64,000 nt of DNA from Ekhidna sp. (GCF_965221965.1 NZ_OZ244926.1:2576972-2640971), one strand, 5' to 3'; counted from the stretch's first letter, positions 28,324 to 39,548 are shown. Program-made: numbers and translations. The notes: generated by a model from the letters alone, not told the origin.

Positions 28324-29175
28324 ATGTCAAACCCTCCTAACCTGGAAAACCTTAAAAAAATTTGTTCGCAAGTTCGACGAGATATCGTACGAATGGTGCA
28401 TGCCGTAAACTCCGGACACCCGGGCGGATCGCTAGGATGTACTGAGTATTTTGTCGCACTGTACAATCATATTATGAAATATGATCCTTCTTTTAATATG
28501 GAGGGTAGAAATGAAGATGTTTTCTTCCTTTCTAATGGTCATATTTCCCCAGTGTTTTACAGCACACTTGCCAGAGCTGGTTTTTTTGATATTTCAGAGC
28601 TTTCCACATTTAGAAAACTCGACTCGAGACTTCAAGGGCATCCTGCTACAGAAGAAGGGCTTCCGGGTGTAAGAATCGCTTCAGGATCACTTGGTCAGGG
28701 GCTTTCAGCTGCCATTGGAGTGGCCTTAGCTAAAAAAATAGATGGAGATGATCGAAATGTGTTTGTATTGATGGGAGATGGCGAACAACAGGAAGGACAG
28801 ATTTGGGAAGCTGCAATGTTCGCTGCTCATAATAAGGTTGATAACCTCATTGCTACCATCGATTACAATGGTCAGCAAATTGATGGTCCATTGGAAGAAG
28901 TTAATAGTCTTGGTGACCTGAAAGCTAAATATGAGGCCTTTGGGTGGGAGGTGCTGGAATGCAATGGCAATGAATTGGGACAATTAATTGAAACATTGGA
29001 AAAAGCTCGATCTAAGTCGGGAAATGGCAAACCGATCATGATCCTCATGACCACCGAAATGGGCAAAGGTGTTGACTTTATGGAGGGAACACACAAATGG
29101 CACGGGGTTGCACCAAATGATGAACAACTCGCAGATGCCCTTAGCCAATTAGAAGAAACGTTAGGAGATTACTAA
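28324..29175 (+). CDS. Transketolase, N-terminal (TPP-binding) subunit
   Basis: GHPGGSLG, GSLGQGLS and GDGEQQEG blocks. A separate ORF encodes the C-terminal half 15 nt downstream. Confidence 0.9.
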   Translation: MSNPPNLENLKKICSQVRRDIVRMVHAVNSGHPGGSLGCTEYFVALYNHIMKYDPSFNMEGRNEDVFFLSNGHISPVFYSTLARAGFFDISELSTFRKLDSRLQGHPATEEGLPGVRIASGSLGQGLSAAIGVALAKKIDGDDRNVFVLMGDGEQQEGQIWEAAMFAAHNKVDNLIATIDYNGQQIDGPLEEVNSLGDLKAKYEAFGWEVLECNGNELGQLIETLEKARSKSGNGKPIMILMTTEMGKGVDFMEGTHKWHGVAPNDEQLADALSQLEETLGDY

Positions 29176-29190
29176 AACCACCAAATACGA

Positions 29191-30147
29191 ATGAAGACAA
29201 AGCTTACTTACACTGATAAAAAAGACACACGTTCCGGGTTTGGTGATGGCCTCTTGGAAGCTGCAAAAAGTAACCCTAACATCGTAGGACTTTGTGCGGA
29301 TCTTACAGGCTCATTGAAAATGAATGCTTTTCAAAAGGAGTTTCCTGAGCGGTTTTTTCAAGTGGGAATTGCAGAAGCAAATATGATGGGGATTGCAGCT
29401 GGACTCGCTACTGCAGGAAAAATTCCTTTCACAGGTACTTTCGCTAATTTTTCAACAAGTAGAGTTTACGATCAACTCAGACAATCAATCGCTTATTCAG
29501 AAAAGAATGTGAAAGTCTGTGCTTCGCATGCCGGATTGACTTTGGGAGAGGATGGAGCCACCCATCAGGTGCTTGAAGATATTGGCATGACTAAAATGCT
29601 TCCAAATTTCACAGTCATTAATCCGTGTGATTACCACCAAACAAAGGCGGCTACTATAGCAATATCCAAATATGAAGGTCCGGTGTATTTACGTTTTGGC
29701 AGACCTGGCTGGCCCATGTTTATGGAGAATCAGCCATTTGAAATCGGTAAAGCAATTACCTTGATTGAAGGAAGCGATGTTTCTATTTTCGCTACAGGTC
29801 ATATGGTGTGGAGAGCAATTGAGGCAGAAGCTGAGCTTGCTGAACAAGGTATATCTGCAGAAGTTATCAATATACATACGATCAAACCGCTAGATAAAGA
29901 AGCTATTCTTCAGTCTATTTCAAAAACTCGTTGTGCCGTTTCTGCTGAGGAACACCAAATAGCAGGAGGTCTTGGGGAAAGTATAGCTCAAACAATCGTA
30001 AGAAATGATCTCGTTCCTCAGGAATTCGTTGCTGTCAACGATCATTTTGGAGAGAGTGGAAAGCCAGCAGACTTACTCGACAAATATGGTCTTGGAGTGA
30101 AAGACATTGTGGAAAAAGCAAAGAAGGCTATCCAACGAAAAGGCTAA
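29191..30147 (+). CDS. Transketolase, C-terminal (pyrimidine-binding) subunit
   Basis: FQVGIAEANMMGIAAGLA and EDGATHQ blocks. Confidence 0.9.
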   Translation: MKTKLTYTDKKDTRSGFGDGLLEAAKSNPNIVGLCADLTGSLKMNAFQKEFPERFFQVGIAEANMMGIAAGLATAGKIPFTGTFANFSTSRVYDQLRQSIAYSEKNVKVCASHAGLTLGEDGATHQVLEDIGMTKMLPNFTVINPCDYHQTKAATIAISKYEGPVYLRFGRPGWPMFMENQPFEIGKAITLIEGSDVSIFATGHMVWRAIEAEAELAEQGISAEVINIHTIKPLDKEAILQSISKTRCAVSAEEHQIAGGLGESIAQTIVRNDLVPQEFVAVNDHFGESGKPADLLDKYGLGVKDIVEKAKKAIQRKG

Positions 30148-33100
30148 CTACTTTCCGACCCGGAAGATATTTTGCTTAGCGAAGAAATGCCACTTAGTCT
30201 TGGCACCAAACTCGCGATTGCAATTAGTACACTCACCATTGCGTTGAAGTCCTGAAAGAAATCCGGGTTGCCAAGGAACAGGAATGCCAGAATACCTAAG
30301 AGTGAAAGACCTAACACAGCACTTACGGTGCTCCACGTTCCTTTTTCACGAACTTCTTTTTCCATTTTCAAGGCCTCTCCCTTTTTAATAATAGAAAGAA
30401 CGAAATTGGTGAAGCTTTCATTCATGATTCGTAGCTCATCCTCATAAATAAGTAACCCCTTTTCAAGCAAACTCCTAATACCATTCTTGTTATTTATATT
30501 AACGAAACGGTCCTTTGCCAGATCATAAATAATATATTTTTCTTCTTTGGATAAAGTGTTCCAAAGACCTAAATAATAGCTTTCTGCAAGTAGCTGAATG
30601 CGTAAAATCAGATCCTCTTTATCTATTTTACTTTCATCATTTCCAACATTTTCTTTCAGCTTCACAAAATAGTCCTTAACCCCGGGCAAAAGGTTGGGTA
30701 AAAAACTACCTTTATTTAACTCCATTCGGAAAAGCTGTTTGAACATATCACTTTTAATCCATGATGGATCTAGATAACTGTTGATTTTACTGTTTTCTTT
30801 GATTGGGTTGTGGACGATTATAAATCCACCCAAAACATGCCTCCATGTTTCCAGTGCGCAATTAAGCTCTTCTCTGGTTTCATCATCACCATCAAAATTC
30901 GAAATCTTATTCTCATAAAAATTGGTAATAAAGCTTGGGTGTACATTGGATGAAATGACGAGCTGCTGACCATGATGACTTGCGAGTTTCTCCAAAAGCT
31001 TTAGTCTTAACTTATTGATCTTATGAGAGCTTACTCCGTATTCGAAATTTTCAATAATCACTCCATCAAAAAGCTTAAAGTTTACTGCTGATAGTTTATT
31101 CCATTCTTCCTCGTTATTTGCAAGCATCATATCCGCTTCATAAAAATTCCCCTCCAGCGTCTTAATTAGGTTGCTCTTATTAGACTTAGGTAGTCCCAAT
31201 AAAAAAATCTGTCGTTGCTTGTGGTGAGTTATACTATCATCACCTATAGAAATTCGCTTGAAGTTCTCAACGGTGAGAGGCAGAGTGTTCTTGAAGTTAT
31301 TGTACTCTCTTCCATATATCTTATTTACGCAATAATCTATTAGAACATAAACACCAACCAGAATAAGTAAAACAGTAAAGAAGAAAAATGAACTGTATTG
31401 CCTTACTCCTTTTTCAATTGATTCCTGTCGCTGACCAAAAGACAGTAAACTGGGCCGGCTCACGATGGTTATCCGCTCATGATCCTGTCTGGTTTTTGGC
31501 CCAAAATTATCCATGTAAACAAGCTGCATTCGGGATTTATCCAAATCATTCGGAAAACACCATTTTCTGTTTTTCTCTTGTGATAGATCGTACGCAAGCC
31601 CCTTGCTTTCAATAATTAAATCACTGTAATGTGGTCTTAATTTAGAAAGTAGATGATCAGAGTTACTAATGTTGTCATTGCAGAATTGATAGGCAGAACC
31701 TGAACTTACATTTAGTTCTGAGTTTAAAAAATACATGCCGCTATCCAGCTTGGAGTTGAAAAATGACTCCCGAACATCCTTAATATTTACCAAAGCATCC
31801 AATCGGTCATCAACGACTCGTACTTTCTGTTTGTAATGTTCAGCAATCTTCAATTGGTTATACTTATGCCAAATAACCTCCTCCTCATTGTGGGCAACCA
31901 TAAAGATGAAGAAGATCGGCAGCACACTACTAATAAGCAGCCAACTGAAGAGGAAAATATTATAGGAATGATGCTGAAGTATACTTTGGATAAACTTGAA
32001 ATTTGGTAATCCTATTTTTCCGTTACTCACAGCCTCCTCAATGAATTTATTAGAAAGTAAAAAAACAATCAATAGTGACTGATAAACGATCCACCACCAG
32101 GACATGCTAAAAAACGAAATGTAACTCCAGTCTGCTGCCACAATAAACAGCAGAAAAGCGATATTAAAATTTCTTCGTTCGGTCGTTTTATCCGTGTAAC
32201 GAGTGATTTTATTTGGTGACAACCAAATAAAGCTAATCAAAAACAGGTAAGCGTTAGTTATTACAAAATTGAAAAGAATATCTGCTTCATGAACACTCGG
32301 AATAGCTATCATGATCAATAGTAACGCTCCAATAAAAAGAAACAACAAAAACAAGAATTGGTACTCCTTTGATTTCCCCTCCTCTGGCTTCATCCAGTGA
32401 AGTAAGAATGTATCAATCCTAAGCTTAGACCTTCGCTTTTGAATTAGGTTTAGAATAATCATCATCAGGCAAACCGCAGCAAAAGAGCCAAAAAGAAGTA
32501 TGATAGAGATACTAACAACTCCCTGTATTTCTGCATTTCGATATTCATTGTCATAAAAAGTCACCAGGTACAACGGCATTGAATTAATCGGCTGGATATA
32601 TGAACGATGATTGACATTTCTGTATTTAATATCTGCCCAGGATGCCACCCTGGTATACATGGCTGCCCGGATATCTCCATCATTGTTTGTCTCTTCTAAA
32701 AAATTCTCCTGTAAAACCCGATCCTTAAGATTATGAAATTTCACCAACCCCTCAGTATCAATGATTGCAAAACCATAGCCAATAGGAAGGATGGCATCCA
32801 TCACTGACCCTAACTGACTCGTCATAGCCAAAACAGGCATATCCTCTCCCATTTCAGAAGGAATGGACACTGCTGCTTCTCGAGTAAAGTCACTCCAGGA
32901 AACAATGGATTGTAAGTAGAAATTGAAGCTGGTATCCTTTTCGAGATTATACTTTTGAACGGCAGTCAGGCTATCAAAACGAAGCTTCCACATCTTGTCT
33001 TCCACAATATTCTTGAAGTACTCCCGCTCACTTACATCAACTGTTGATGCTTTCATATTTAAAAGTGTTCTCTGAAAATCATAAGATGTGTTTCCATCTT

Positions 33101-34493
33101 TTTCAATCCAAAAAATATGATTGAATTCATTGTAATTAGAAACATCAAAATTCTTAAGGACAGTGGTATCTGGTAAATCAGTATTCTTTGAAACGGCTAA
33201 ATCCAGTTCATTTAGCAGATTTACTATGGTATATATTTCCCTTACAAAACTGCCTTCTATCTTTTCTGATAAGTCCTCAAGGTTATGGTCTATTTCTTGG
33301 TTTCCCTTGATCACAAATTCATACAAATTGAAAACAATAAGCAGGACCATGGGTATGCCCAGCACCAAAGAACCACCGACCATCAAAACATTTCGGATAT
33401 GAAGCCGCTCAATGGGACTCATCAACACTAGCTTGAGCATTGGCATGGAAATAACCAAGAGCAACACAAGTAGTATCGCCAGAACCAATAAAAACACCTC
33501 TACCTTTTGAGATTCTTTTTTGAAAACAGATGACTTGACAAAACCGCCGAGAAAATAGGTCTCATCATTGATTTTCATTCGATGAAACATCAGTTTATAA
33601 CCTTCATTAAAGAGTTCTACATGTACAGGCTTAATCATTCTTGGGCCCATGGAGATATTCAGAGAATCCGCATTGCCATTTTTGGTGCCTTTCGTCTGGA
33701 GCGTCGGACTGATGGAAACCAGATCGATAGGATTATTAAAAGTTTGGTAAATGATTGAATAACTAAAGGGATCACCCAACTCCTTTACTCCGGAATAATC
33801 CTCCTTTAGAAGCACATATTCATCAAAAAAACCATTCACCAAAACATCTTTGATAAACGTGTTTGCACCTTCACTAAAGGATATGGTCTCCCCTTCATCT
33901 CCCTTTATATTCCATGCAAAATCATTCTGACGATAAAGCAACTCGTCCTTGGAGTAATAATTATCGCTTTTATCATAGTAATAGTTAAACGTTACGTTTC
34001 TGGGAGCCGAAGATTGAAGAATTTCAATAATCCTGTTATTGGCTCTTTCACTAAAGCTTGATTGTAGTTTATTGATTTGCTCCTGATAGAGGTCAATTCT
34101 TTTATTAATTGCTCTTACCAACCTATCAGTTTCAGCCGGATTGCGGAAATAGCTGAGTTTGCTTTGTAAAATCCTGGAAGAATCATTAAGAGCGATGACC
34201 TGATCCTGGTACCAATTAATTGTGGATTGTTGCTTTTGCCCCGCATCCAGAATGGACTGTATATCTCCCTTTACCGTTTTGTAGATATACGCGAGATAAT
34301 TCTGATATCCGGAATATTTGTTCTTAATATTCTCACTCTTTCTGTCTAATACACGGTATGCACGATCAATGAATCTCGATTCACTGGTTTTTACATAAAC
34401 GAGAAAATAGTAAGCAAAAGCAGCAAGTATCAGCAACAGAGTCGTAAAAAGAATACCATTCCTACGGCCCACTTTAGGTAGTGAAAAGGTCAT
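30144..34493 (-). CDS. Orphan 1449-aa polytopic membrane protein: two Cache-like extracytoplasmic regions, multi-TM core, degenerate P-loop NTPase-like plus winged-helix-like module, C-terminal TM hairpin
   Basis: About 12 hydrophobic helices are visible by eye. A Cache-like hallmark is present (VDVSEREYFKNI ... PVLAMTSQLGSVMDAILPIGYGFAIIDTEGLVKFH). Residues 1100-1107 read GLPKSNKS (nt 31173-31196), against the GxPGxGKS consensus. A Walker-B-like segment FDGVIIENFE lies at nt 31041-31070. Confidence 0.7.
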   Translation of the reverse strand: MTFSLPKVGRRNGILFTTLLLILAAFAYYFLVYVKTSESRFIDRAYRVLDRKSENIKNKYSGYQNYLAYIYKTVKGDIQSILDAGQKQQSTINWYQDQVIALNDSSRILQSKLSYFRNPAETDRLVRAINKRIDLYQEQINKLQSSFSERANNRIIEILQSSAPRNVTFNYYYDKSDNYYSKDELLYRQNDFAWNIKGDEGETISFSEGANTFIKDVLVNGFFDEYVLLKEDYSGVKELGDPFSYSIIYQTFNNPIDLVSISPTLQTKGTKNGNADSLNISMGPRMIKPVHVELFNEGYKLMFHRMKINDETYFLGGFVKSSVFKKESQKVEVFLLVLAILLVLLLVISMPMLKLVLMSPIERLHIRNVLMVGGSLVLGIPMVLLIVFNLYEFVIKGNQEIDHNLEDLSEKIEGSFVREIYTIVNLLNELDLAVSKNTDLPDTTVLKNFDVSNYNEFNHIFWIEKDGNTSYDFQRTLLNMKASTVDVSEREYFKNIVEDKMWKLRFDSLTAVQKYNLEKDTSFNFYLQSIVSWSDFTREAAVSIPSEMGEDMPVLAMTSQLGSVMDAILPIGYGFAIIDTEGLVKFHNLKDRVLQENFLEETNNDGDIRAAMYTRVASWADIKYRNVNHRSYIQPINSMPLYLVTFYDNEYRNAEIQGVVSISIILLFGSFAAVCLMMIILNLIQKRRSKLRIDTFLLHWMKPEEGKSKEYQFLFLLFLFIGALLLIMIAIPSVHEADILFNFVITNAYLFLISFIWLSPNKITRYTDKTTERRNFNIAFLLFIVAADWSYISFFSMSWWWIVYQSLLIVFLLSNKFIEEAVSNGKIGLPNFKFIQSILQHHSYNIFLFSWLLISSVLPIFFIFMVAHNEEEVIWHKYNQLKIAEHYKQKVRVVDDRLDALVNIKDVRESFFNSKLDSGMYFLNSELNVSSGSAYQFCNDNISNSDHLLSKLRPHYSDLIIESKGLAYDLSQEKNRKWCFPNDLDKSRMQLVYMDNFGPKTRQDHERITIVSRPSLLSFGQRQESIEKGVRQYSSFFFFTVLLILVGVYVLIDYCVNKIYGREYNNFKNTLPLTVENFKRISIGDDSITHHKQRQIFLLGLPKSNKSNLIKTLEGNFYEADMMLANNEEEWNKLSAVNFKLFDGVIIENFEYGVSSHKINKLRLKLLEKLASHHGQQLVISSNVHPSFITNFYENKISNFDGDDETREELNCALETWRHVLGGFIIVHNPIKENSKINSYLDPSWIKSDMFKQLFRMELNKGSFLPNLLPGVKDYFVKLKENVGNDESKIDKEDLILRIQLLAESYYLGLWNTLSKEEKYIIYDLAKDRFVNINNKNGIRSLLEKGLLIYEDELRIMNESFTNFVLSIIKKGEALKMEKEVREKGTWSTVSAVLGLSLLGILAFLFLGNPDFFQDFNAMVSVLIAIASLVPRLSGISSLSKISSGSESS

Positions 34494-34631
34494 TTTCGAT
34501 TAGGTAATAGTGAGTATAGATAGTAATATAAAGATTATCAAACCTAACTAAAAGACACACTCTCAATTTCTTCTTAAAATGAAATCAGATGAGCAAATAG
34601 TGAAATAACATGCATTGTGCATCTTTGCGAT

Positions 34632-35822
34632 ATGCTTTCAAACAGACAGCTTTTTCTCAACCACCTGGCTCAAACATCCGACGCACCTCTCATGCTGGAA
34701 ATGGTATCTGCTGAGGGTGTCTACATGACTGATATTGATGGAAAAAAATACCTTGATTTAATATCAGGGATTGGGGTCTCCAACGTAGGCCATCGCCACC
34801 CTAACGTTGTAAAGGCAATCAAAGAGCAGGTAGACAAGCACCTTCATGTGATGGTTTATGGAGAATTTGTGCAAAGTCCTCAAGTAAGGCTTGCTGAAGC
34901 GCTTATAAAAACGCTACCAAACACTTTAGATTCGGTCTACCTTGTAAATTCAGGGAGTGAAGCCATTGAAGGGGCTATGAAACTCGCCAAAAGGTATACT
35001 GGACGGTCCAATCTCATCGCGTGTAAGGATGCCTATCACGGATCGTCTCATGGGGCGCTTTCACTGACCGGCAGTGAAGACTTCAAACAAAACTACCGTC
35101 CACTTTTACCCGGTATTTCTCATATCCATTTTGGTGATGCTGAATCATTAAGTCTTATCGATGACGAAACCGCTGCAATCGTAATAGAAACCGTGCAGGG
35201 AGAGGCTGGTGTAAGACATGCGGATAGTTCCTACTGGAAAGCTTTACGAGAGAAGTGTGATGAAACCGGGGCATTGTTGATTCTGGATGAAATACAATGT
35301 GGCTTTGGCAGAACAGGGAAATTATGGGCATTTGAACATTACGACATTAAACCAGACGTTTTAGTAAGTGCCAAAGGAATGGGAGGTGGCATGCCCATTG
35401 GATGCTTTATTTCGTCCAAAGAAATCATGGGTGTATTTACCAATAACCCGGTACTGGGCCACATATCTACATTCGGTGGACATCCCGTATCAAGTGCGGC
35501 CTCACTGGCAACACTAAAGACCATTCAAAAAGAGAATCTACTTCAAGATGTTGCAAACAAAGAAAAAATCTTTCACGACCATCTGAAGCATCCTAGAATC
35601 AAAGCAGTGAGGAGTAAAGGGCTTATGATGGCAGTGGAATTTGAGTCCTATGATGTACTGAAACCAATCATAGACCGAGCGATTGAATTGGGCGTGGTGA
35701 CGGATTGGTTCTTATTTAACGACAGGTCTATGCGAATAGCTCCGCCACTTATCATTACAGAAGAAGAAATAAAAAAAGCCTGCGAGATAATTCTGCAGGC
35801 CATTCATGATGTGGTGGAATAG
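34632..35822 (+). CDS. Class-III PLP aminotransferase (acetylornithine/ornithine aminotransferase-like)
   Basis: SGSEAIEGAMKLA, DEIQCGFGRTG, and SAKGMGGG (PLP lysine). Confidence 0.85.
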   Translation: MLSNRQLFLNHLAQTSDAPLMLEMVSAEGVYMTDIDGKKYLDLISGIGVSNVGHRHPNVVKAIKEQVDKHLHVMVYGEFVQSPQVRLAEALIKTLPNTLDSVYLVNSGSEAIEGAMKLAKRYTGRSNLIACKDAYHGSSHGALSLTGSEDFKQNYRPLLPGISHIHFGDAESLSLIDDETAAIVIETVQGEAGVRHADSSYWKALREKCDETGALLILDEIQCGFGRTGKLWAFEHYDIKPDVLVSAKGMGGGMPIGCFISSKEIMGVFTNNPVLGHISTFGGHPVSSAASLATLKTIQKENLLQDVANKEKIFHDHLKHPRIKAVRSKGLMMAVEFESYDVLKPIIDRAIELGVVTDWFLFNDRSMRIAPPLIITEEEIKKACEIILQAIHDVVE

Positions 35823-35826
35823 CTGA

Positions 35827-37005
35827 TCAAATCAGTTGATTCAAATCGAGCGTAAAGGTCTTCTCCTCTCCCATTTGCAATACGGTCAATTTCACTTGTT
35901 CATTTGCTTTTTCCAAAAGCTCACGGAGTTGAGGAAGTGTATAATCGTCAACACTTTTATCATTCACCCTTAAGATTTCAGCCTCCGGCGAAATACCAGC
36001 CTTTTTCGCTGGACTATCCTCATAAACCCTATGAACAAGCACCTTACTCATATCTTTATTCAATTGAAGATACATACCGCTGGCATTTACAGTCATCTTT
36101 TCATCAAAGGCTTTGTTCTTCGAGAAATAAATTTTTTTCTGTGAATAATCGAAAGTGATGTTAAACTTCTTCAACAACTTATTGCCCATAATTCCCGCTA
36201 CCTTTTTATTGTGTTGGATCCCATGGCGAGCAGTACTGATACCAATTGGCATTTCTAAAAAATCAAATCCACCAAAACCAAAATTCCGAACTCGACCTTC
36301 ATAATGCATAGTCTCATCCTCACTAAGTCCTGCAACCGGGTATGAGAAATGATCCCCTGTTCTTTTGATGATATCATTCTTCTCAGCAAATCTGGTGTTG
36401 AAATCCATTGTTGTTCCTGCACCTGTATTTATGAAAAATTCACCAGTTAGGGTTTCCCCATCATTCAAAGTCACCCTAGCTTCAATGTGGGGAATGTAAT
36501 TATCCAACTTAAATTCAAATTCCTTTCCGCTCCCATCATGCTTATATGTGCCCTGATCGTATAGCTCAAACATTCCCTTATCATAATCCAACTTCACTAC
36601 ATAGTGGTGCAGTAAATCATATCCTATTATTCCATCAATGTTCTTTCCGATACTCATCTCCAGATGCCTCAGACTTGTTGCATAAAGCTGGATATCCTTT
36701 TCTAACTCTATCCCGTTCAACTCAATTGTATTATGATCAATGAGAGCTCCTTTCACAGCACCCTGTGCGCTAGTTTTAGAGGCTTGATGGTTCAGGTCCA
36801 GCCCTAGCTCATTTGCTACATCCAGATCAATAACCGGCAATCCATCTCCAGTATCAAAAATGAAATCTAAAGGCTCTGAGCCATCCACACTCAGCTGAAT
36901 AAACAAGTGATCCCCAAACAGCTGCATCTTCGTAGATGTAATCGGTGTTTGCGCCTGAATTGATATTGAAACAAGGAAAAGCGAGGCAGTAAGAAATTTT
37001 TTCAT
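35827..37005 (-). CDS. Secreted two-lobe retropepsin-like aspartyl protease homolog with a C-terminal PDZ domain
   Basis: Has a signal peptide. Lobe 1 carries FIFDTGDG (D51) plus GIIGYDLL. Lobe 2 carries FINTGAG (N193 in place of Asp) plus GIMGNKLL. The C-terminus is PDZ-like (SPAKKAGISPEAEILRVND). Confidence 0.7.
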   Translation of the reverse strand: MKKFLTASLFLVSISIQAQTPITSTKMQLFGDHLFIQLSVDGSEPLDFIFDTGDGLPVIDLDVANELGLDLNHQASKTSAQGAVKGALIDHNTIELNGIELEKDIQLYATSLRHLEMSIGKNIDGIIGYDLLHHYVVKLDYDKGMFELYDQGTYKHDGSGKEFEFKLDNYIPHIEARVTLNDGETLTGEFFINTGAGTTMDFNTRFAEKNDIIKRTGDHFSYPVAGLSEDETMHYEGRVRNFGFGGFDFLEMPIGISTARHGIQHNKKVAGIMGNKLLKKFNITFDYSQKKIYFSKNKAFDEKMTVNASGMYLQLNKDMSKVLVHRVYEDSPAKKAGISPEAEILRVNDKSVDDYTLPQLRELLEKANEQVKLTVLQMGEEKTFTLDLNQLI

Positions 37006-38522: not shown

Positions 38523-38990
38523 ATGCGTTATTTTCGCATGCTCAACCTGTCACTCAACACCTACGCACACCTCCTTTTCATCATCACTATTTTTTGCGCT
38601 TTAATAGCAGAAGTGATACTCATTGATAAGGCTGTCCAACGAAAAACGATAAAAAAACTAAGCCTCATTGATGGTGTTTATGGCTTAGCTGCTCTGCTTG
38701 TACTAGGCACAGGTTTACTCAACTGGATGGTATTCGGAAAAGGAACTACTTATTACAATAGCAACACGCTTTTCTTAATCAAAATCTCACTTTTCATTAT
38801 CGTAGGACTGCTCTCCATCTATCCGACAGTCATGATAGCTCGGGCAAAAAAGCTACTTAAAAAGCACTCTGCCGAAGAGGTGTCTTTGCCTAATGCTATG
38901 AAAATGAGAAAGTTCATTATTGCAGAGTTAATTATTATGTCCTGCATTCCACTGCTTGCAGAGTTAATGGCCAATGGAATTGATTTTTAA
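38523..38990 (+). CDS. Hypothetical 4-TM membrane protein
   Basis: Four hydrophobic helices; first gene after the structured leader. Confidence 0.55.
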   Translation: MRYFRMLNLSLNTYAHLLFIITIFCALIAEVILIDKAVQRKTIKKLSLIDGVYGLAALLVLGTGLLNWMVFGKGTTYYNSNTLFLIKISLFIIVGLLSIYPTVMIARAKKLLKKHSAEEVSLPNAMKMRKFIIAELIIMSCIPLLAELMANGIDF

Positions 38991-39014
38991 ATCAGCATAT
39001 TGGTATCTTTCAGT

Positions 39015-39548
39015 ATGAATCTGCGAAAAATGAAGCTCTTACCGATTGCTATCATGGCACTGATGATCTGTTCATGTATGAAGCCTGACCCAAACATGAA
39101 TGAGGAAACCGGTACAGATGAGCTGACCTCCCTTGAACTGGAGGATCCAATAAACAAGCTGGAAATGACCTATGAGGACATTATTTATGTACCTATTTAT
39201 TCAGATATTTACTTGGATGCCAACAACCAAAAGACCTTACTCGCTGCTACTTTGAGCATCCGAAATACCAGCTACAGCGATTCCATCTTTATATCGAAAA
39301 TTGACTACTTCAGTACCGACGGCAATCTGGTAAGGAAGTATTTAAAAAATCAAATCAGCCTTCCTCCCATGGCCACCATCAATTATGTGATTGAGCGAGA
39401 AGATGATACCGGAGGATCTGGTGCTAATTTTATTGTGAAGCTAAGTGCGAAAAATGAAGATGTGAAGCCACTCATCCAAGCGGTTATGATTGGCCAGTAT
39501 GGCAATAAAGGCTTTGCTTTTTCAACTGACGGATACTCGATAAAATAA
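39015..39548 (+). CDS. Lipoprotein, possibly DUF3124-like
   Basis: Lipobox MICSC. IYVPIYSDIY resembles the DUF3124 signature as I remember it. The ATG at 39015 is preferred over the TTG at 39000. Confidence 0.45.
   Translation: MNLRKMKLLPIAIMALMICSCMKPDPNMNEETGTDELTSLELEDPINKLEMTYEDIIYVPIYSDIYLDANNQKTLLAATLSIRNTSYSDSIFISKIDYFSTDGNLVRKYLKNQISLPPMATINYVIEREDDTGGSGANFIVKLSAKNEDVKPLIQAVMIGQYGNKGFAFSTDGYSIK

What the first reader, a model, noticed from the sequence alone, without database searches (positions are those of the whole stretch)
30144..34493. Orphan 1449-aa membrane protein joining two Cache-like sensor regions to a degenerate P-loop/winged-helix module
The gene stands alone between transketolase and an aminotransferase. 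Its stop overlaps the transketolase stop on the opposite strand (CTAA). Read by eye, the layout is as follows.
- TM1, then a coiled-coil plus globular extracytoplasmic region.
- A TM hairpin, then a second extracytoplasmic region with classic Cache hallmarks (VDVSEREYFKNI; PVLAMTSQ...GFAIIDTEGLVKFH; ...PLYLVTFYD just before the next TM).
- A cluster of about 5-6 TM helices, a roughly 160-aa loop, and another TM.
- A soluble module whose Walker A reads GLPKSNKS (residues 1100-1107, nt 31173-31196). This is the GxPGxGKS pattern with both inner glycines replaced. About 40 residues later comes a Walker-B-like FDGVIIENFE.
- A helical region ending in an LSKEEKYIIYDLAKD...IRSLLEKGLL segment that looks like a winged-helix/LuxR-like element, then a final TM pair.
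No kinase, cyclase, MCP or other canonical output domain is visible. A dual Cache sensor wired to a membrane-tethered, possibly catalytically dead STAND/AAA-like NTPase is not an architecture I can assign to a described family.
Basis: partly seen in the sequence, partly recalled or inferred. Interest (0 to 1): 0.7.

Follow-up and report, generated by a model that had tools for sequence, protein, structure and literature searches.

The report
Cache-sensor membrane protein with decayed ATPase-like module
This 1449-residue gene encodes a membrane receptor with a proven double-Cache sensor outside the cell and, inside, an AAA+/STAND-like switch module with eroded ATP-binding motifs; it is not an orphan, because the same unstudied design recurs in several orders of Bacteroidota.

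Summary
ORF 30144..34493 (-) encodes 1449 aa, and the quoted motifs, coordinates and CTAA stop overlap are correct.

- **Database status.** Pfam, NCBIfam, PADLOC and PDB sequence searches find nothing for the protein itself.
- **Second outside region (388-661).** It is a genuine dCache_1 domain. Relatives give near-threshold Pfam hits. The AlphaFold model (pLDDT 81) matches PctA/PctB/Mlp24 sensor domains at TM 0.67-0.74.
- **First outside region.** It is a long helical hairpin plus a beta-rich lobe. It is only weakly PDC-like.
- **Cytoplasmic module (1053-1389).** It folds as an AAA+/STAND-like nucleotide-binding domain, a helical lid and a winged helix. Foldseek matches DnaA, Hda, IstB, ORC and ClpX with probability 1.0. 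Relatives give sub-threshold nSTAND3, nSTAND1 and Bac_DnaA hits.
- **Family size.** "Orphan" is wrong. The module is found in 3298 protein clusters, nearly all about 1350 aa with the same layout. They span Cytophagales, Sphingobacteriales, Chitinophagales and some Flavobacteriales.
- **Partners.** No conserved neighbour gene exists.
- **Motif erosion.** Only 28 of 207 members keep GxxxxGK[ST]. The winged helix is the most conserved part.

Most likely this is a self-contained ligand-gated receptor whose NTPase-derived module acts as a non-hydrolysing conformational switch. The output is unknown.

The parts
30144..34493 (-). Whole ORF, 1449 aa plus stop.
   Evidence: Full-length homologues at E = 0.
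34398..34454 (-). TM1 (residues 14-32). The N-terminus is cytoplasmic (KVGRRNG).
   Evidence: Hydropathy and positive-inside rule. In the AF2 model the helix continues into the periplasm.
33999..34397 (-). Periplasmic helical hairpin (residues 33-165).
   Evidence: AF2 helices 10-113 and 119-162, pLDDT about 85.
33504..33998 (-). Periplasmic beta-rich lobe of region 1 (residues 166-330), possibly PDC-like.
   Evidence: AF2 strand order. hhalign against the proximal PDC lobe gives E 0.0048, probability 7%. No PDB sequence hit.
33333..33503 (-). TM2, a conserved cytoplasmic loop (P351, K354, R363), and TM3 (residues 331-387).
   Evidence: Invariant columns. 76% identity within the clade.
32511..33332 (-). 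Periplasmic dCache_1 domain (residues 388-661): stalk helix, distal lobe about 457-559 (R490, Y492), proximal lobe about 573-648 (H587, E596, N597, E601).
   Evidence: dCache_1 hits in relatives: P0020 at E 2.5e-11 over profile positions 3-239 of 240; P0017, P0019 and P0015 weaker. AF2 pLDDT about 85-94. Foldseek matches to PctA/PctB/CtaA/Mlp24/Tlp3 at E about 1e-6 and TMt 0.67-0.74.
31902..32510 (-). Cluster of six TMs, TM4-TM9 (residues 662-864), with a conserved cytoplasmic F..W..P...Y segment after TM4 (W700, P703, Y711).
   Evidence: Few conserved residues across the family (mean column identity 20% for this cluster together with the loop and TM10).
31395..31901 (-). Variable loop (residues 865-1033), predicted periplasmic. 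It carries a Cys pair in most Ekhidna-clade sequences.
   Evidence: The loop profile matches only 32 of 97 long relatives.
31338..31394 (-). TM10 (residues 1034-1052).
30804..31337 (-). Cytoplasmic AAA+/STAND-like nucleotide-binding domain (residues 1053-1230).
   Evidence: AF2 shows a beta-alpha-beta core at pLDDT about 80. Foldseek matches DnaA/Hda/IstB/DnaC/ORC/RFC/ClpX at E about 1e-4, probability 1.0. Weak DnaA and P-loop kinase profile hits. Sub-threshold nSTAND3, nSTAND1 and Bac_DnaA hits in relatives.
31173..31196 (-). Walker-A-derived loop GLPKSNKS (residues 1100-1107).
   Evidence: Family consensus is G[LS]PGSGK[LST]. Invariant in 14 of 15 Ekhidna-clade sequences.
31038..31064 (-). 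Walker-B-derived strand GVIIENFEY (residues 1144-1152).
   Evidence: Family pattern hhhh[NDE][HN]FEY.
30585..30803 (-). Helical lid region (residues 1231-1303).
   Evidence: AF2 helices. 79% identity within the clade.
30384..30584 (-). Winged-helix domain (residues 1304-1370), the most conserved part of the family.
   Evidence: AF2 shows three helices plus a beta-hairpin wing. Invariant residues: Y1307, W1311, E1318, D1324, A1326, N1332, L1342, K1345, N1358, F1361, N1363, F1364. 93% identity in the clade and 42% in distant relatives.
30186..30383 (-). Basic amphipathic helix with invariant W1387, then the TM11-TM12 hairpin (residues 1371-1436).
   Evidence: The C-terminal TM profile is found in 149 of 149 representatives. 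Two TMs follow the module in 64 of 68 members.

Best explanation
The gene encodes one member of a large, uncharacterised family of polytopic (about 12-TM) inner-membrane receptors. The family is documented so far in Bacteroidota.

**Shown**
- The periplasmic face carries a helical hairpin with a beta-rich lobe, and a bona fide double-Cache (dCache_1) ligand-binding domain.
- The cytoplasmic face carries conserved short loops and an NBD-lid-winged-helix module of AAA+/STAND type. This module is clamped to the membrane at both ends, by TM10 before it and by a TM hairpin after it.
- The nucleotide-binding motifs of the module are eroded in different ways in different lineages. The winged helix is nearly invariant.

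**Inferred**
- A small molecule binds the Cache domain.
- The stalk and TM helices transmit the change to the conserved cytoplasmic loops.
- The NTPase-derived module flips between closed and open (or oligomerised) states, as STAND and initiator AAA+ proteins do. It does so without needing ATP hydrolysis.
- The output is a change in the winged helix and C-terminal TM hairpin, read either by the membrane domain itself or by an unlinked partner.
- In the Ekhidna lineage the loop GLPKSNKS plus the acidic ENFEY is under purifying selection and may still hold a nucleotide or phosphate ligand as a cofactor.
For: **Architecture**
- ORF and hydropathy support the layout.
- 34 of 35 relatives have a TM7/TM8 hairpin. 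That gives seven TMs between the Cache domain and the module, an odd number.
- The flanks of the module are richer in K+R than the flanks of the Cache domain (5.96 against 3.68). The TM11-12 loop is acidic.

**Cache domain**
- Pfam dCache_1 hits in P0020, P0017, P0019 and P0015 map to residues 388-661.
- The AF2 model has pLDDT 81 and pTM 0.72.
- Foldseek top 50 are essentially all dCache-type sensor domains of chemoreceptors and histidine kinases, TMt up to 0.74.
- RefSeq names relatives 'cache/PDC sensor domain-containing protein'.

**Cytoplasmic module**
- AF2 shows a five-strand beta-alpha core, a lid and a winged helix.
- Foldseek matches DnaA, Hda, IstB, ORC, RFC and ClpX with probability 1.0.
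- A profile hit to DnaA aligns the Walker B to sensor I stretch. Profile hits to P-loop kinases align at Walker A.
- nSTAND3 is hit by 5 relatives, nSTAND1 by 3 and Bac_DnaA by 2, out of 54.

**Family**
- 3298 clusters at E<=1e-3 and 969 at E<=1e-30.
- All 97 long representatives keep the dCache domain, the module and the C-terminal TM pair.
- 80 genomic loci, with organism titles from several Bacteroidota orders.

**Self-contained gene**
- The best non-self neighbour cluster occurs in only 8 of 80 loci.
- Distant homologues have unrelated neighbours.

**Non-catalytic switch**
- Only 28 of 207 members have GxxxxGK[ST].
- The commonest form is GxPGSGKL paired with NHFEY. By my reading, both usual Mg2+ ligands are replaced in that form.
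- Some clades have lost the Lys altogether.
- No invariant Arg is present in the module.
- The winged helix is the conservation peak.
Against: - No experiment exists, and the output is unknown.
- The C-terminal model is only moderately confident (pLDDT 66, pTM 0.46). Foldseek global TM scores are low (0.2-0.3 on the query) because several domains are involved.
- All sequence hits to NTPase families are below curated thresholds.
- Topology rests on hydropathy alone. A simple count gives 6 or 7 TMs between Cache and module.
- GLPKSNKS/ENFEY is strictly conserved in this clade and keeps Lys, Ser and an acidic residue. Nucleotide binding, or even slow hydrolysis, cannot be excluded here.
- No oligomerisation evidence is available.
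Confidence: 0.45

Rival explanations
1. The module is an active NTPase. ATP binding and hydrolysis drive the signalling cycle or some membrane work, as in a genuine STAND or AAA+ protein. GLPKSNKS is then an unusual but working P-loop.
For: - K1106, S1107 and acidic E1148 are kept.
- The loop is invariant in 14 of 15 clade members at 48-78% overall identity.
- By my own recall, Asn is the non-Gly residue that best tolerates the left-handed backbone conformation expected at the replaced Gly.
- 28 of 207 relatives have a fully canonical Walker A, 15 of them with a DH Walker B.
- The nearest outgroup has GLPKSGKS.
Against: - Most of the family has Leu in place of Ser/Thr and Asn in place of the Walker-B Asp. 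Several clades lack the Lys altogether. Yet the architecture and the winged helix stay conserved.
- There is no invariant Arg finger or sensor II.
- The position after the Walker-B acid is H or N, not D or E.
Confidence: 0.2
2. The protein is a membrane-tethered one-component transcription factor. The winged helix binds DNA, in the manner of ToxR or CadC, and the Cache domain controls it.
For: - The winged helix is the most conserved element.
- No partner gene and no other output domain are present.
- ORC/Cdc6 and DnaA-type proteins, the best structural matches, use their C-terminal domains for DNA binding (own knowledge).
Against: - The net charge of the winged helix averages -0.6 across 54 members. 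The putative recognition helix plus wing averages +0.7.
- The helix-wing motif resembles the intramolecular winged helix of STAND proteins.
- The domain is pinned to the membrane on both sides.
- No GerE or other HTH Pfam hit is found.
Confidence: 0.12
3. The protein is a conflict or defence type NLR-like sensor. After activation the STAND-like module oligomerises and damages the membrane through its own TM segments or through a lipase partner.
For: - Sub-threshold nSTAND3 and nSTAND1 hits occur in relatives.
- A patatin-like phospholipase gene lies immediately upstream on the same strand in 7 Pedobacter and Mucilaginibacter loci, plus Hufsiella (weak match). Another lies about 3.4 kb downstream in at least L001, L016 and L025 (a partial one also in L030).
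- Tandem paralogues occur in L060.
Against: - No PADLOC hit.
- No copy on plasmids or phages.
- Synteny with housekeeping genes is stable across Ekhidna.
- The sensor is a periplasmic small-molecule type domain.
- The two patatin types are unrelated to each other, and 72 of 84 loci lack one.
- No patatin gene is present in this window.
Confidence: 0.1
4. The protein is a Cache-regulated channel or transporter. The 12 TM helices carry a substrate and the cytoplasmic module gates them.
For: - There are twelve TM helices.
- The module is clamped between TM10 and TM11-12, so its movements must displace TM segments.
Against: - The stretch from TM4 to TM10, including the long loop, is the least conserved part (mean column identity 20%). 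Essentially only W700, P703, Y711 and P859 are conserved, and no conserved charged intramembrane residues are seen.
- No transporter family hit is found.
Confidence: 0.08
5. Alternative topology: there are only 11 TMs, so the NTPase-like module sits in the periplasm. ATP is absent there, and that would explain the motif erosion.
For: A simple non-overlapping hydropathy count gives 6 TMs between Cache and module in the query and in 30 of 68 relatives.
Against: - 34 of 35 aligned relatives show two separate hydrophobic blocks in a 44-residue TM7/TM8 region.
- The flanks of the module are strongly basic.
- The TM11-12 loop is acidic and lacks K/R.
- The Cys pair lies in the loop that the 12-TM model places in the periplasm.
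Confidence: 0.05

Closest known systems
dCache_1 ligand-binding domains of chemoreceptors and sensor kinases (PctA/PctB/PctC, CtaA, Mlp24/Mlp37, Tlp3, DctB; Pfam PF02743)
   Same: Residues 388-661 have a long stalk helix plus two PDC lobes between two TM helices. Foldseek TMt is 0.67-0.74. An R-x-[YW]-[YF] motif (R490, Y492) sits in the distal lobe. Relatives hit PF02743.
   Different: The query itself scores below detection with PF02743. The strongest conservation is in the membrane-proximal lobe (G582, H587, E596, N597, E601). The domain is not coupled to an MCP, kinase, cyclase or phosphatase output.
STAND NTPases (NB-ARC/NACHT/MalT-type; Pfam nSTAND1 and nSTAND3, Avs-type)
   Same: The order NBD-helical lid-winged helix is shared. 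The helix-wing motif L..L..KGLL...L.hMN.SF.NF resembles the WHD motif of Apaf-1 and NB-ARC (own knowledge). Sub-threshold nSTAND3 and nSTAND1 hits occur in 5 and 3 of 54 relatives. A sensor domain sits on the same polypeptide.
   Different: Walker A and B are degenerate. Asn replaces the WHD His. There is no C-terminal repeat sensor. The sensor is N-terminal and periplasmic. The module is flanked by TM helices. There is no N-terminal effector domain. All HMM hits are below threshold.
Initiator-clade AAA+ proteins (DnaA, Hda, DnaC/IstB, ORC/Cdc6) and clamp-loader subunits
   Same: They are the best structural matches (E about 1e-4, probability 1.0). The DnaA profile alignment pairs hhhhENFEY...hhISSNVHP with the DnaA Walker B...IVICSDREP stretch. 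Bac_DnaA is hit in 2 of 54 relatives.
   Different: There is no invariant Arg finger or sensor II, and no DNA-binding HTH signature. The protein is membrane-embedded. Global TM scores are low (0.2-0.3 on the query).
KAP-family P-loop NTPases (own knowledge: Aravind et al. 2004) and ExeA/GspA membrane-anchored AAA+ proteins
   Same: They are membrane-associated P-loop proteins that combine a cytoplasmic NTPase with TM segments. ExeA also has a periplasmic binding domain.
   Different: KAP proteins have their TM helices inserted inside the NTPase domain. Here the TM helices flank the whole NBD-lid-WH unit. No KAP_NTPase hit is listed among the shown families, and AAA_22 is only a single weak hit. 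ExeA has one TM and a peptidoglycan-binding domain.

Membership tests
dCache_1 (PF02743) | Match to the Pfam model at or above the gathering score (45 bits). | tested here: not met
   The query gives no hit even at E<=10. The best relative, P0020, scores 44.0 bits at E 2.5e-11 over profile positions 3-239 of 240. P0017 scores 21.7 bits.
dCache_1 (PF02743) | Fold: N-terminal stalk helix followed by two tandem PDC (alpha/beta) lobes. | tested here: met
   The AF2 model has pLDDT 81. Foldseek matches to PctA/PctB/CtaA/Mlp24 have TMt 0.67-0.74 and rmsd about 4-5 A over about 265 columns.
dCache_1 (PF02743) | Extracytoplasmic location between two TM helices. | tested here: met
   TM3 is 369-387 and TM4 is 662-680. 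A basic cytoplasmic segment follows TM4. Three TMs precede the domain in 64 of 68 relatives.
STAND NTPases | Tripartite NOD: ASCE P-loop NBD, helical domain, winged helix. | tested here: met
   Secondary structure of the AF2 model and Foldseek matches to AAA+ NBD-lid-WH proteins. Model confidence is moderate (pLDDT 66).
STAND NTPases | Canonical Walker A GxxxxGK[ST]. | tested here: not met
   The query has GLPKSNKS, with Asn at the second Gly. Only 28 of 207 family members are canonical.
STAND NTPases | Walker B hhhhD[DE]. | tested here: not met
   The query has VIIEN. The family has hhhh[NDE][HN].
STAND NTPases | Significant match to a STAND family model (NACHT, NB-ARC, nSTAND1-6, AAA_16). 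| tested here: inconclusive
   The query has none. Among relatives, nSTAND3 is hit by 5 of 54 (best E 1.9e-4) and nSTAND1 by 3 of 54 (best E 1.5e-3). Their E-values are weak and, in my judgement, far below what the curated cut-offs require.
STAND NTPases | Conserved His (MHD/LHD) in the winged helix that contacts ADP. | tested here: not met
   By motif comparison from my own recall, the equivalent position is the invariant Asn N1358 in 'MNESF'.
AAA+ (initiator clade: DnaA/ORC) | AAA+ core fold with lid. | tested here: met
   Foldseek top hits are DnaA, Hda, IstB, DnaC-like, ORC, RFC and ClpX with probability 1.0.
AAA+ (initiator clade: DnaA/ORC) | Arg finger (box VII) and sensor II Arg. | tested here: not met
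   No Arg column reaches 85% conservation within the NBD or lid.
AAA+ (initiator clade: DnaA/ORC) | Significant match to Bac_DnaA or AAA models. | tested here: inconclusive
   Bac_DnaA is hit by 2 of 54 relatives (best E 4.8e-4) and AAA by 2 of 54. The PDB DnaA profile hit has E 0.14.
KAP NTPases | TM helices inserted within the P-loop domain. | tested here: not met
   No hydrophobic segment lies between residues 1053 and 1389. The TMs flank the module.
LuxR/GerE HTH | Match to GerE, or a four-helix HTH. | tested here: not met
   No Pfam hit for the query, and GerE is not among the families listed for relatives. AF2 shows a winged helix with a beta-hairpin.
Canonical bacterial signalling outputs (HisKA/HATPase_c, MCPsignal, GGDEF, EAL, HD-GYP, PP2C, cyclase, STYK) | Presence of any such domain. 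| tested here: not met
   Zero Pfam, NCBIfam or PADLOC hits for the full protein at E<=10.

The most novel reading that the evidence does not exclude
This family is a new class of bacterial transmembrane receptor. A periplasmic Cache sensor directly drives a cytoplasmic, membrane-clamped NLR/STAND-like oligomerisation switch that has largely given up ATP hydrolysis. That would make it a 'membrane NLR-like one-component system', widespread in environmental Bacteroidota, with an output mode (winged helix plus TM hairpin) unlike any described signalling output.
Probability: 0.3. Interest if true: 0.75.

Novelty: new variant of a known kind. Interest (0 to 1): 0.6.

Why it matters
- Cache domains are the commonest extracellular sensors in prokaryotes. 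By my own recall, they are known to feed kinases, chemoreceptors, cyclases and phosphatases.
- Here the same sensor is fused, in thousands of proteins, to an NTPase-derived switch with no recognisable output. This points to a signalling route that current censuses label only as 'cache domain-containing protein'.
- The family also offers a natural series of P-loop erosion on an unchanged scaffold: canonical GxxxxGKS/T, then GxPGSGKL/NHFEY, then GLPKSNKS, then loss of the Lys. That series is useful for asking how STAND/AAA+ switches become nucleotide-independent.
- Cultured hosts (Pedobacter, Mucilaginibacter, Echinicola, Dyadobacter) make the family testable.

Tried and rejected
- **Single-sequence searches.** Pfam, NCBIfam, PADLOC and PDB gave no hits.
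- **Word-indexed homologue search.** It returned the same 20 proteins three times, even with 19- and 51-sequence profiles. It therefore badly understated the family. The exhaustive representative search was needed.
- **PDB profile searches.** The Cache region and region 1 gave only spurious hits (syncytin, PylS, MdbA).
- **Locus scan.** The search for related loci with the 51-sequence alignment failed for lack of a conserved stretch.
- **Structure prediction.** A 23-sequence subset worked.
- **Literature.** Searches for STAND+Cache, transmembrane STAND, nSTAND and 'cache domain-containing protein' in Bacteroidota found nothing describing this family.
- **Rejected: conserved operon partner**.
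- **Rejected: mobile-element or plasmid association**.
- **Rejected: LuxR-type HTH.**
- **Rejected: KAP-type inserted TMs.**
- **Rejected: conserved third periplasmic domain.** The loop profile matches only 32 of 97 long relatives and the loop is highly variable.

Full report
**1. Observation**

The window holds an ATG-initiated ORF at 30144..34493 on the minus strand. It encodes 1449 aa. It lies between a split transketolase and a class-III aminotransferase. The transketolase is two ORFs, 28324-29175 (N-terminal subunit) and 29191-30147 (C-terminal subunit). The aminotransferase is at 34617-35822. The minus-strand TAG and the plus-strand TAA overlap in 'ctaa' at 30144-30147.

A Kyte-Doolittle scan gives the following layout:
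- TM1 at 14-32.
- A 298-aa loop.
- A TM hairpin at 331-387.
- A 274-aa loop.
- A cluster of six TMs, TM4-TM9, at 662-864.
- A 169-aa loop.
- TM10 at 1034-1052.
- A 337-aa soluble module.
- A final TM pair at 1390-1436.

**2. Direct database status**

The protein has no hit in Pfam, NCBIfam or PADLOC even at E<=10. It has no PDB sequence relative. The word-indexed homologue search found only 20 proteins. Sixteen are full-length relatives at 48-98% identity; the named ones are from Ekhidna sp. MAGs. Four are distant at 24-27% identity, and two of those carry PF02743 dCache_1.

**3. The family is large, so 'orphan' is wrong**

An exhaustive HMM search used the C-terminal module (residues 1053-1449; alignment A2) against 1.84 billion cluster representatives. 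It found 3298 clusters at E<=1e-3, 2697 at E<=1e-10 and 969 at E<=1e-30. Most are 1300-1450 aa with the module at the C-terminus.

Segment HMMs show the architecture is shared. All 97 long representatives among the best 149 have the Cache region, the module and the C-terminal TM pair. Of those 97, 81 also match region 1, 95 match the TM2-3 hairpin, and 91 match the TM cluster. The long loop is recognisable in only 32.

A scan of one genome per GTDB species confirmed 109 loci. The 80 loci retrieved come from these groups:
- Cytophagales: Ekhidna, Reichenbachiella, Roseivirga, Echinicola, Dyadobacter, Catalinimonas.
- Sphingobacteriales: Pedobacter, Mucilaginibacter, Hufsiella.
- Chitinophagales: Ferruginibacter, Taibaiella, Segetibacter.
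- A few Flavobacteriales.

The scan used a single peptide pattern, so this range is a lower bound. RefSeq calls these proteins 'cache domain-containing', 'PDC sensor domain-containing' or 'hypothetical'. Only the Cache part has therefore been recognised.

**4. Periplasmic sensor**

Sub-threshold but full-length dCache_1 hits occur in relatives. P0020 scores E 2.5e-11 and 44.0 bits against a cut-off of 45, over profile positions 3-239 of 240. P0017, P0019 and P0015 also hit. These hits map onto query residues 388-661.

An AlphaFold2 model of residues 1-690 was built from 23 family sequences. It has pLDDT 81 and pTM 0.72. It shows:
- A 70-residue stalk helix running from TM3.
- A distal alpha/beta lobe at about 457-559.
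- A proximal lobe at about 573-648.
- TM4.

Foldseek against the PDB returns essentially only dCache-type sensor domains of chemoreceptors and histidine kinases (PctA/B/C, CtaA, Mlp24/37, Tlp3, DctB). E-values are about 1e-6 and target-normalised TM scores reach 0.74. The second region is therefore one bona fide double-Cache domain.

Family-invariant residues are R490 and Y492 in the distal lobe. By my own recall these sit at the usual R-x-W-Y position. There is also an unusually conserved cluster in the proximal lobe: G582, V584, H587, L594, E596, N597 and E601.

Region 1 is a long helical hairpin (helices 10-113 and 119-162) followed by a beta-rich lobe (168-328). Its second half has a strand order compatible with a PDC lobe. 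It aligns to the proximal PDC lobe by hhalign at E 0.0048 but only 7% probability. No PDB sequence relative was found. 'Cache-like' for region 1 is thus possible but unproven.

**5. Cytoplasmic module**

An AlphaFold2 model of residues 1053-1449 was built from 14 sequences. Overall pLDDT is 66, and about 80 in the core. Its elements, in module numbering, are:

| Element | Module residues | Sequence or feature |
|---|---|---|
| Strand, then the P-loop | 43-47 | IFLLG |
| Helix-strand-helix | following | |
| Strand | 92-96 | GVIIE, Walker B position |
| Helix, then strand | 125-130 | QLVISS, sensor I position |
| Helices, fifth strand, helical lid | following | |
| Three helices plus beta-hairpin wing | 252-304 | winged helix |
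| Long helix | running into TM11 | |

Evidence on the fold class:
- Foldseek's best matches are DnaA, Hda, IstB, DnaC-like initiators, ORC, clamp-loader subunits, ClpX and Vps4. E-values are about 1e-4 to 1e-3 with probability 1.0. Target-normalised TM scores reach 0.49 for isolated AAA+ domains.
- The A2 profile weakly hits DnaA (E 0.14). That alignment pairs hhhhENFEY...ISSNVHP with the DnaA Walker B...IVICSDREP stretch.
- A broader 54-sequence profile weakly hits P-loop kinases and GTPases exactly at Walker A.
- Scanning 54 family modules individually against Pfam gave nSTAND3 (5 members, best E 1.9e-4), nSTAND1 (3), Bac_DnaA (2, best E 4.8e-4), AAA_18, AAA, AAA_22, TniB and Rad17. All these matches are weak (best E-values 1e-4 to 1e-2) and far from curated significance.

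The helix-wing motif 'IRSLLEKGLLIYEDELRIMNESFTNFVL' resembles, by my own recall, the WHD motif of Apaf-1, NB-ARC and MalT. In that comparison the invariant Asn N1358 stands where STAND proteins have the ADP-contacting His. I conclude that the fold is AAA+/STAND grade (NBD-lid-WH). The module cannot be filed as a member of any defined family.

**6. Nucleotide-site erosion**

The figures below cover 207 members with aligned motifs:

| Feature | Count |
|---|---|
| Canonical GxxxxGK[ST] | 28 |
| GxxxxGKx | 106 |
| Lys retained | 151 |

The commonest form in Sphingobacteriales and Chitinophagales is G[SL]PGSGKL with hhhhNHFEY. By my reading, both usual Mg2+ ligands (Walker A Ser/Thr and Walker B Asp) are replaced in that form. 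Roseivirgaceae and Flammeovirgaceae types read SMPFAGAE/EHFSY. No Arg column is conserved in the NBD or lid.

In the Ekhidna clade the loop is GLPKSNKS with ENFEY. It is invariant in 14 of 15 sequences whose overall identity to the query is only 48-78%. The nearest outgroup (L023/P0022, 46% identity in the module) has GLPKSGKS. The site here is therefore altered but under purifying selection. Across the family as a whole, hydrolysis cannot be the conserved function.

Conservation peaks elsewhere:

| Region | Identity within the clade | Identity in the four distant relatives |
|---|---|---|
| Winged helix | 93% | 42% |
| Lid | 79% | 18% |
| TM2-loop-TM3 | 76% | 25% |
| NBD | 71% | 20% |
| Region 1 globular lobe | 49% | 15% |
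| Long loop | 49% | 11% |

**7. Topology**

A simple count gives 6 or 7 TMs between Cache and module. In 34 of 35 aligned relatives the 44-residue TM7/TM8 stretch contains two separate hydrophobic blocks. That gives 7 TMs between them and 12 in total.

The 12-TM model puts the Cache domain, region 1 and the long loop outside. It puts the module, the TM2-3 loop (P351, K354, R363) and the post-TM4 segment (W700, P703, Y711) inside. Three further points agree with it:
- The module flanks are more basic than the Cache flanks (5.96 against 3.68 K+R per 30 residues).
- The TM11-12 loop is acidic.
- A Cys pair lies in the outside loop in most of the Ekhidna clade.

This remains a prediction.

**8. 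Context**

Synteny (aminotransferase on one side, transketolase on the other) holds only within Ekhidna. Distant homologues have unrelated neighbours. In an all-against-all comparison of flanking ORFs from 80 loci, no non-self cluster occurs in more than 8 loci. The module has no relative on plasmids or phages. Input and output must therefore be contained in the protein, or the partner is unlinked.

One partial association was seen. A patatin-like phospholipase gene lies immediately upstream on the same strand in 7 Pedobacter and Mucilaginibacter loci, and weakly in Hufsiella. An unrelated patatin gene lies about 3.4 kb downstream in L001, L016 and L025, and a partial one is present in L030. 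No patatin gene is in this window.

**9. Mechanism**

Shown:
- A dCache sensor.
- A 12-TM scaffold with few conserved intramembrane residues.
- Conserved cytoplasmic loops.
- An NBD-lid-WH module clamped between TM10 and a TM hairpin.
- Eroded nucleotide motifs.
- A neutral winged helix, with mean net charge -0.6.

Inferred:
- Ligand binding to the Cache domain is relayed through the stalk and TM helices to the cytoplasmic loops.
- This toggles the NTPase-derived module between closed and open or oligomeric states without obligatory hydrolysis.
- The winged helix and C-terminal hairpin are the output surface.

Rivals considered are an active NTPase, a membrane-tethered DNA-binding regulator, a defence-type NLR with a membrane or lipase effector, a gated transporter, and a periplasmic module. 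They are weighed in the rival list.

**10. Comparison and novelty**

The parts are known kinds: dCache_1, an AAA+/STAND-like NOD, and a winged helix. The combination is not in Pfam or NCBIfam. It was not found in the searchable literature.

I rate it a new variant of a known kind, namely Cache-sensor receptors with a new NTPase-derived output. It is carried by a large uncharacterised family.

Interest is 0.6. This is a solid, testable lead for bacterial signal transduction and for pseudo-NTPase evolution. It rests on prediction only, and the output is unknown.

Noticed in passing
window 30144-30147: Convergent genes share overlapping stop codons ('ctaa': TAG on the minus strand, TAA on the plus strand). 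No intergenic space is left for a terminator between the receptor gene and the transketolase C-subunit gene.
   Followed up: partly
window 28324-30147: Transketolase is encoded as two adjacent ORFs. The N-terminal TPP-binding subunit is 283 aa. The pyrimidine-binding/C-terminal subunit is 318 aa. The same split is seen in the syntenic Ekhidna locus L004.
   Followed up: partly
L041:1646-2956, L064:1785-3095 and five other Pedobacter/Mucilaginibacter loci; L080:1579-2769; L001:15667-17112, L016:10516-12027, L025:10287-11801: Patatin-like phospholipase genes lie next to family members in two unrelated configurations. In Sphingobacteriaceae the gene is immediately upstream on the same strand. In the Catalinimonas-like clade it is about 3.4 kb downstream. 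The two patatin types are not specifically related (BLASTP E 0.31). This could be a lineage-specific partner or chance.
   Followed up: partly
L060:3109-7137 and L060:8977-13077: Two full-length family paralogues lie about 1.8 kb apart on the same strand in one Mucilaginibacter MAG. This suggests sensor diversification by duplication.
   Followed up: no
window 32733-32777 (residues 573-587) and 32691-32708 (residues 596-601): The strongest conservation in the Cache domain is in the membrane-proximal lobe (G582, V584, H587, L594, E596, N597, E601). The usual ligand-binding lobe is the distal one. This may mark a proximal-pocket ligand or metal site.
   Followed up: partly
P0020 (JGI metagenome, 4.8-kb contig): This is a distant full-architecture homologue. 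Its composition is rich in Ala and Arg, which suggests a high-GC organism, and its P-loop is completely lost (CHPCDDAAA). It suggests the family extends beyond Bacteroidota.
   Followed up: no
window 30144-34493 versus the whole window: The gene's GC content is 37.2% against 40.8% for the window. The difference is modest and was not pursued.
   Followed up: no
window 35827-37005 and 38523-39548: A predicted aspartyl-protease plus PDZ protein lies at 35827-37005. An adjacent DUF2214/DUF3124 gene pair lies downstream at 38523-39548. Neither appears related to the finding.
   Followed up: no
tool behaviour (versus 32): The word-indexed homologue search returned the same 20 proteins for single-sequence and profile queries. 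The exhaustive search found 3298 clusters. Apparent 'orphan' status from the indexed search is unreliable for long, TM-rich queries.
   Followed up: yes
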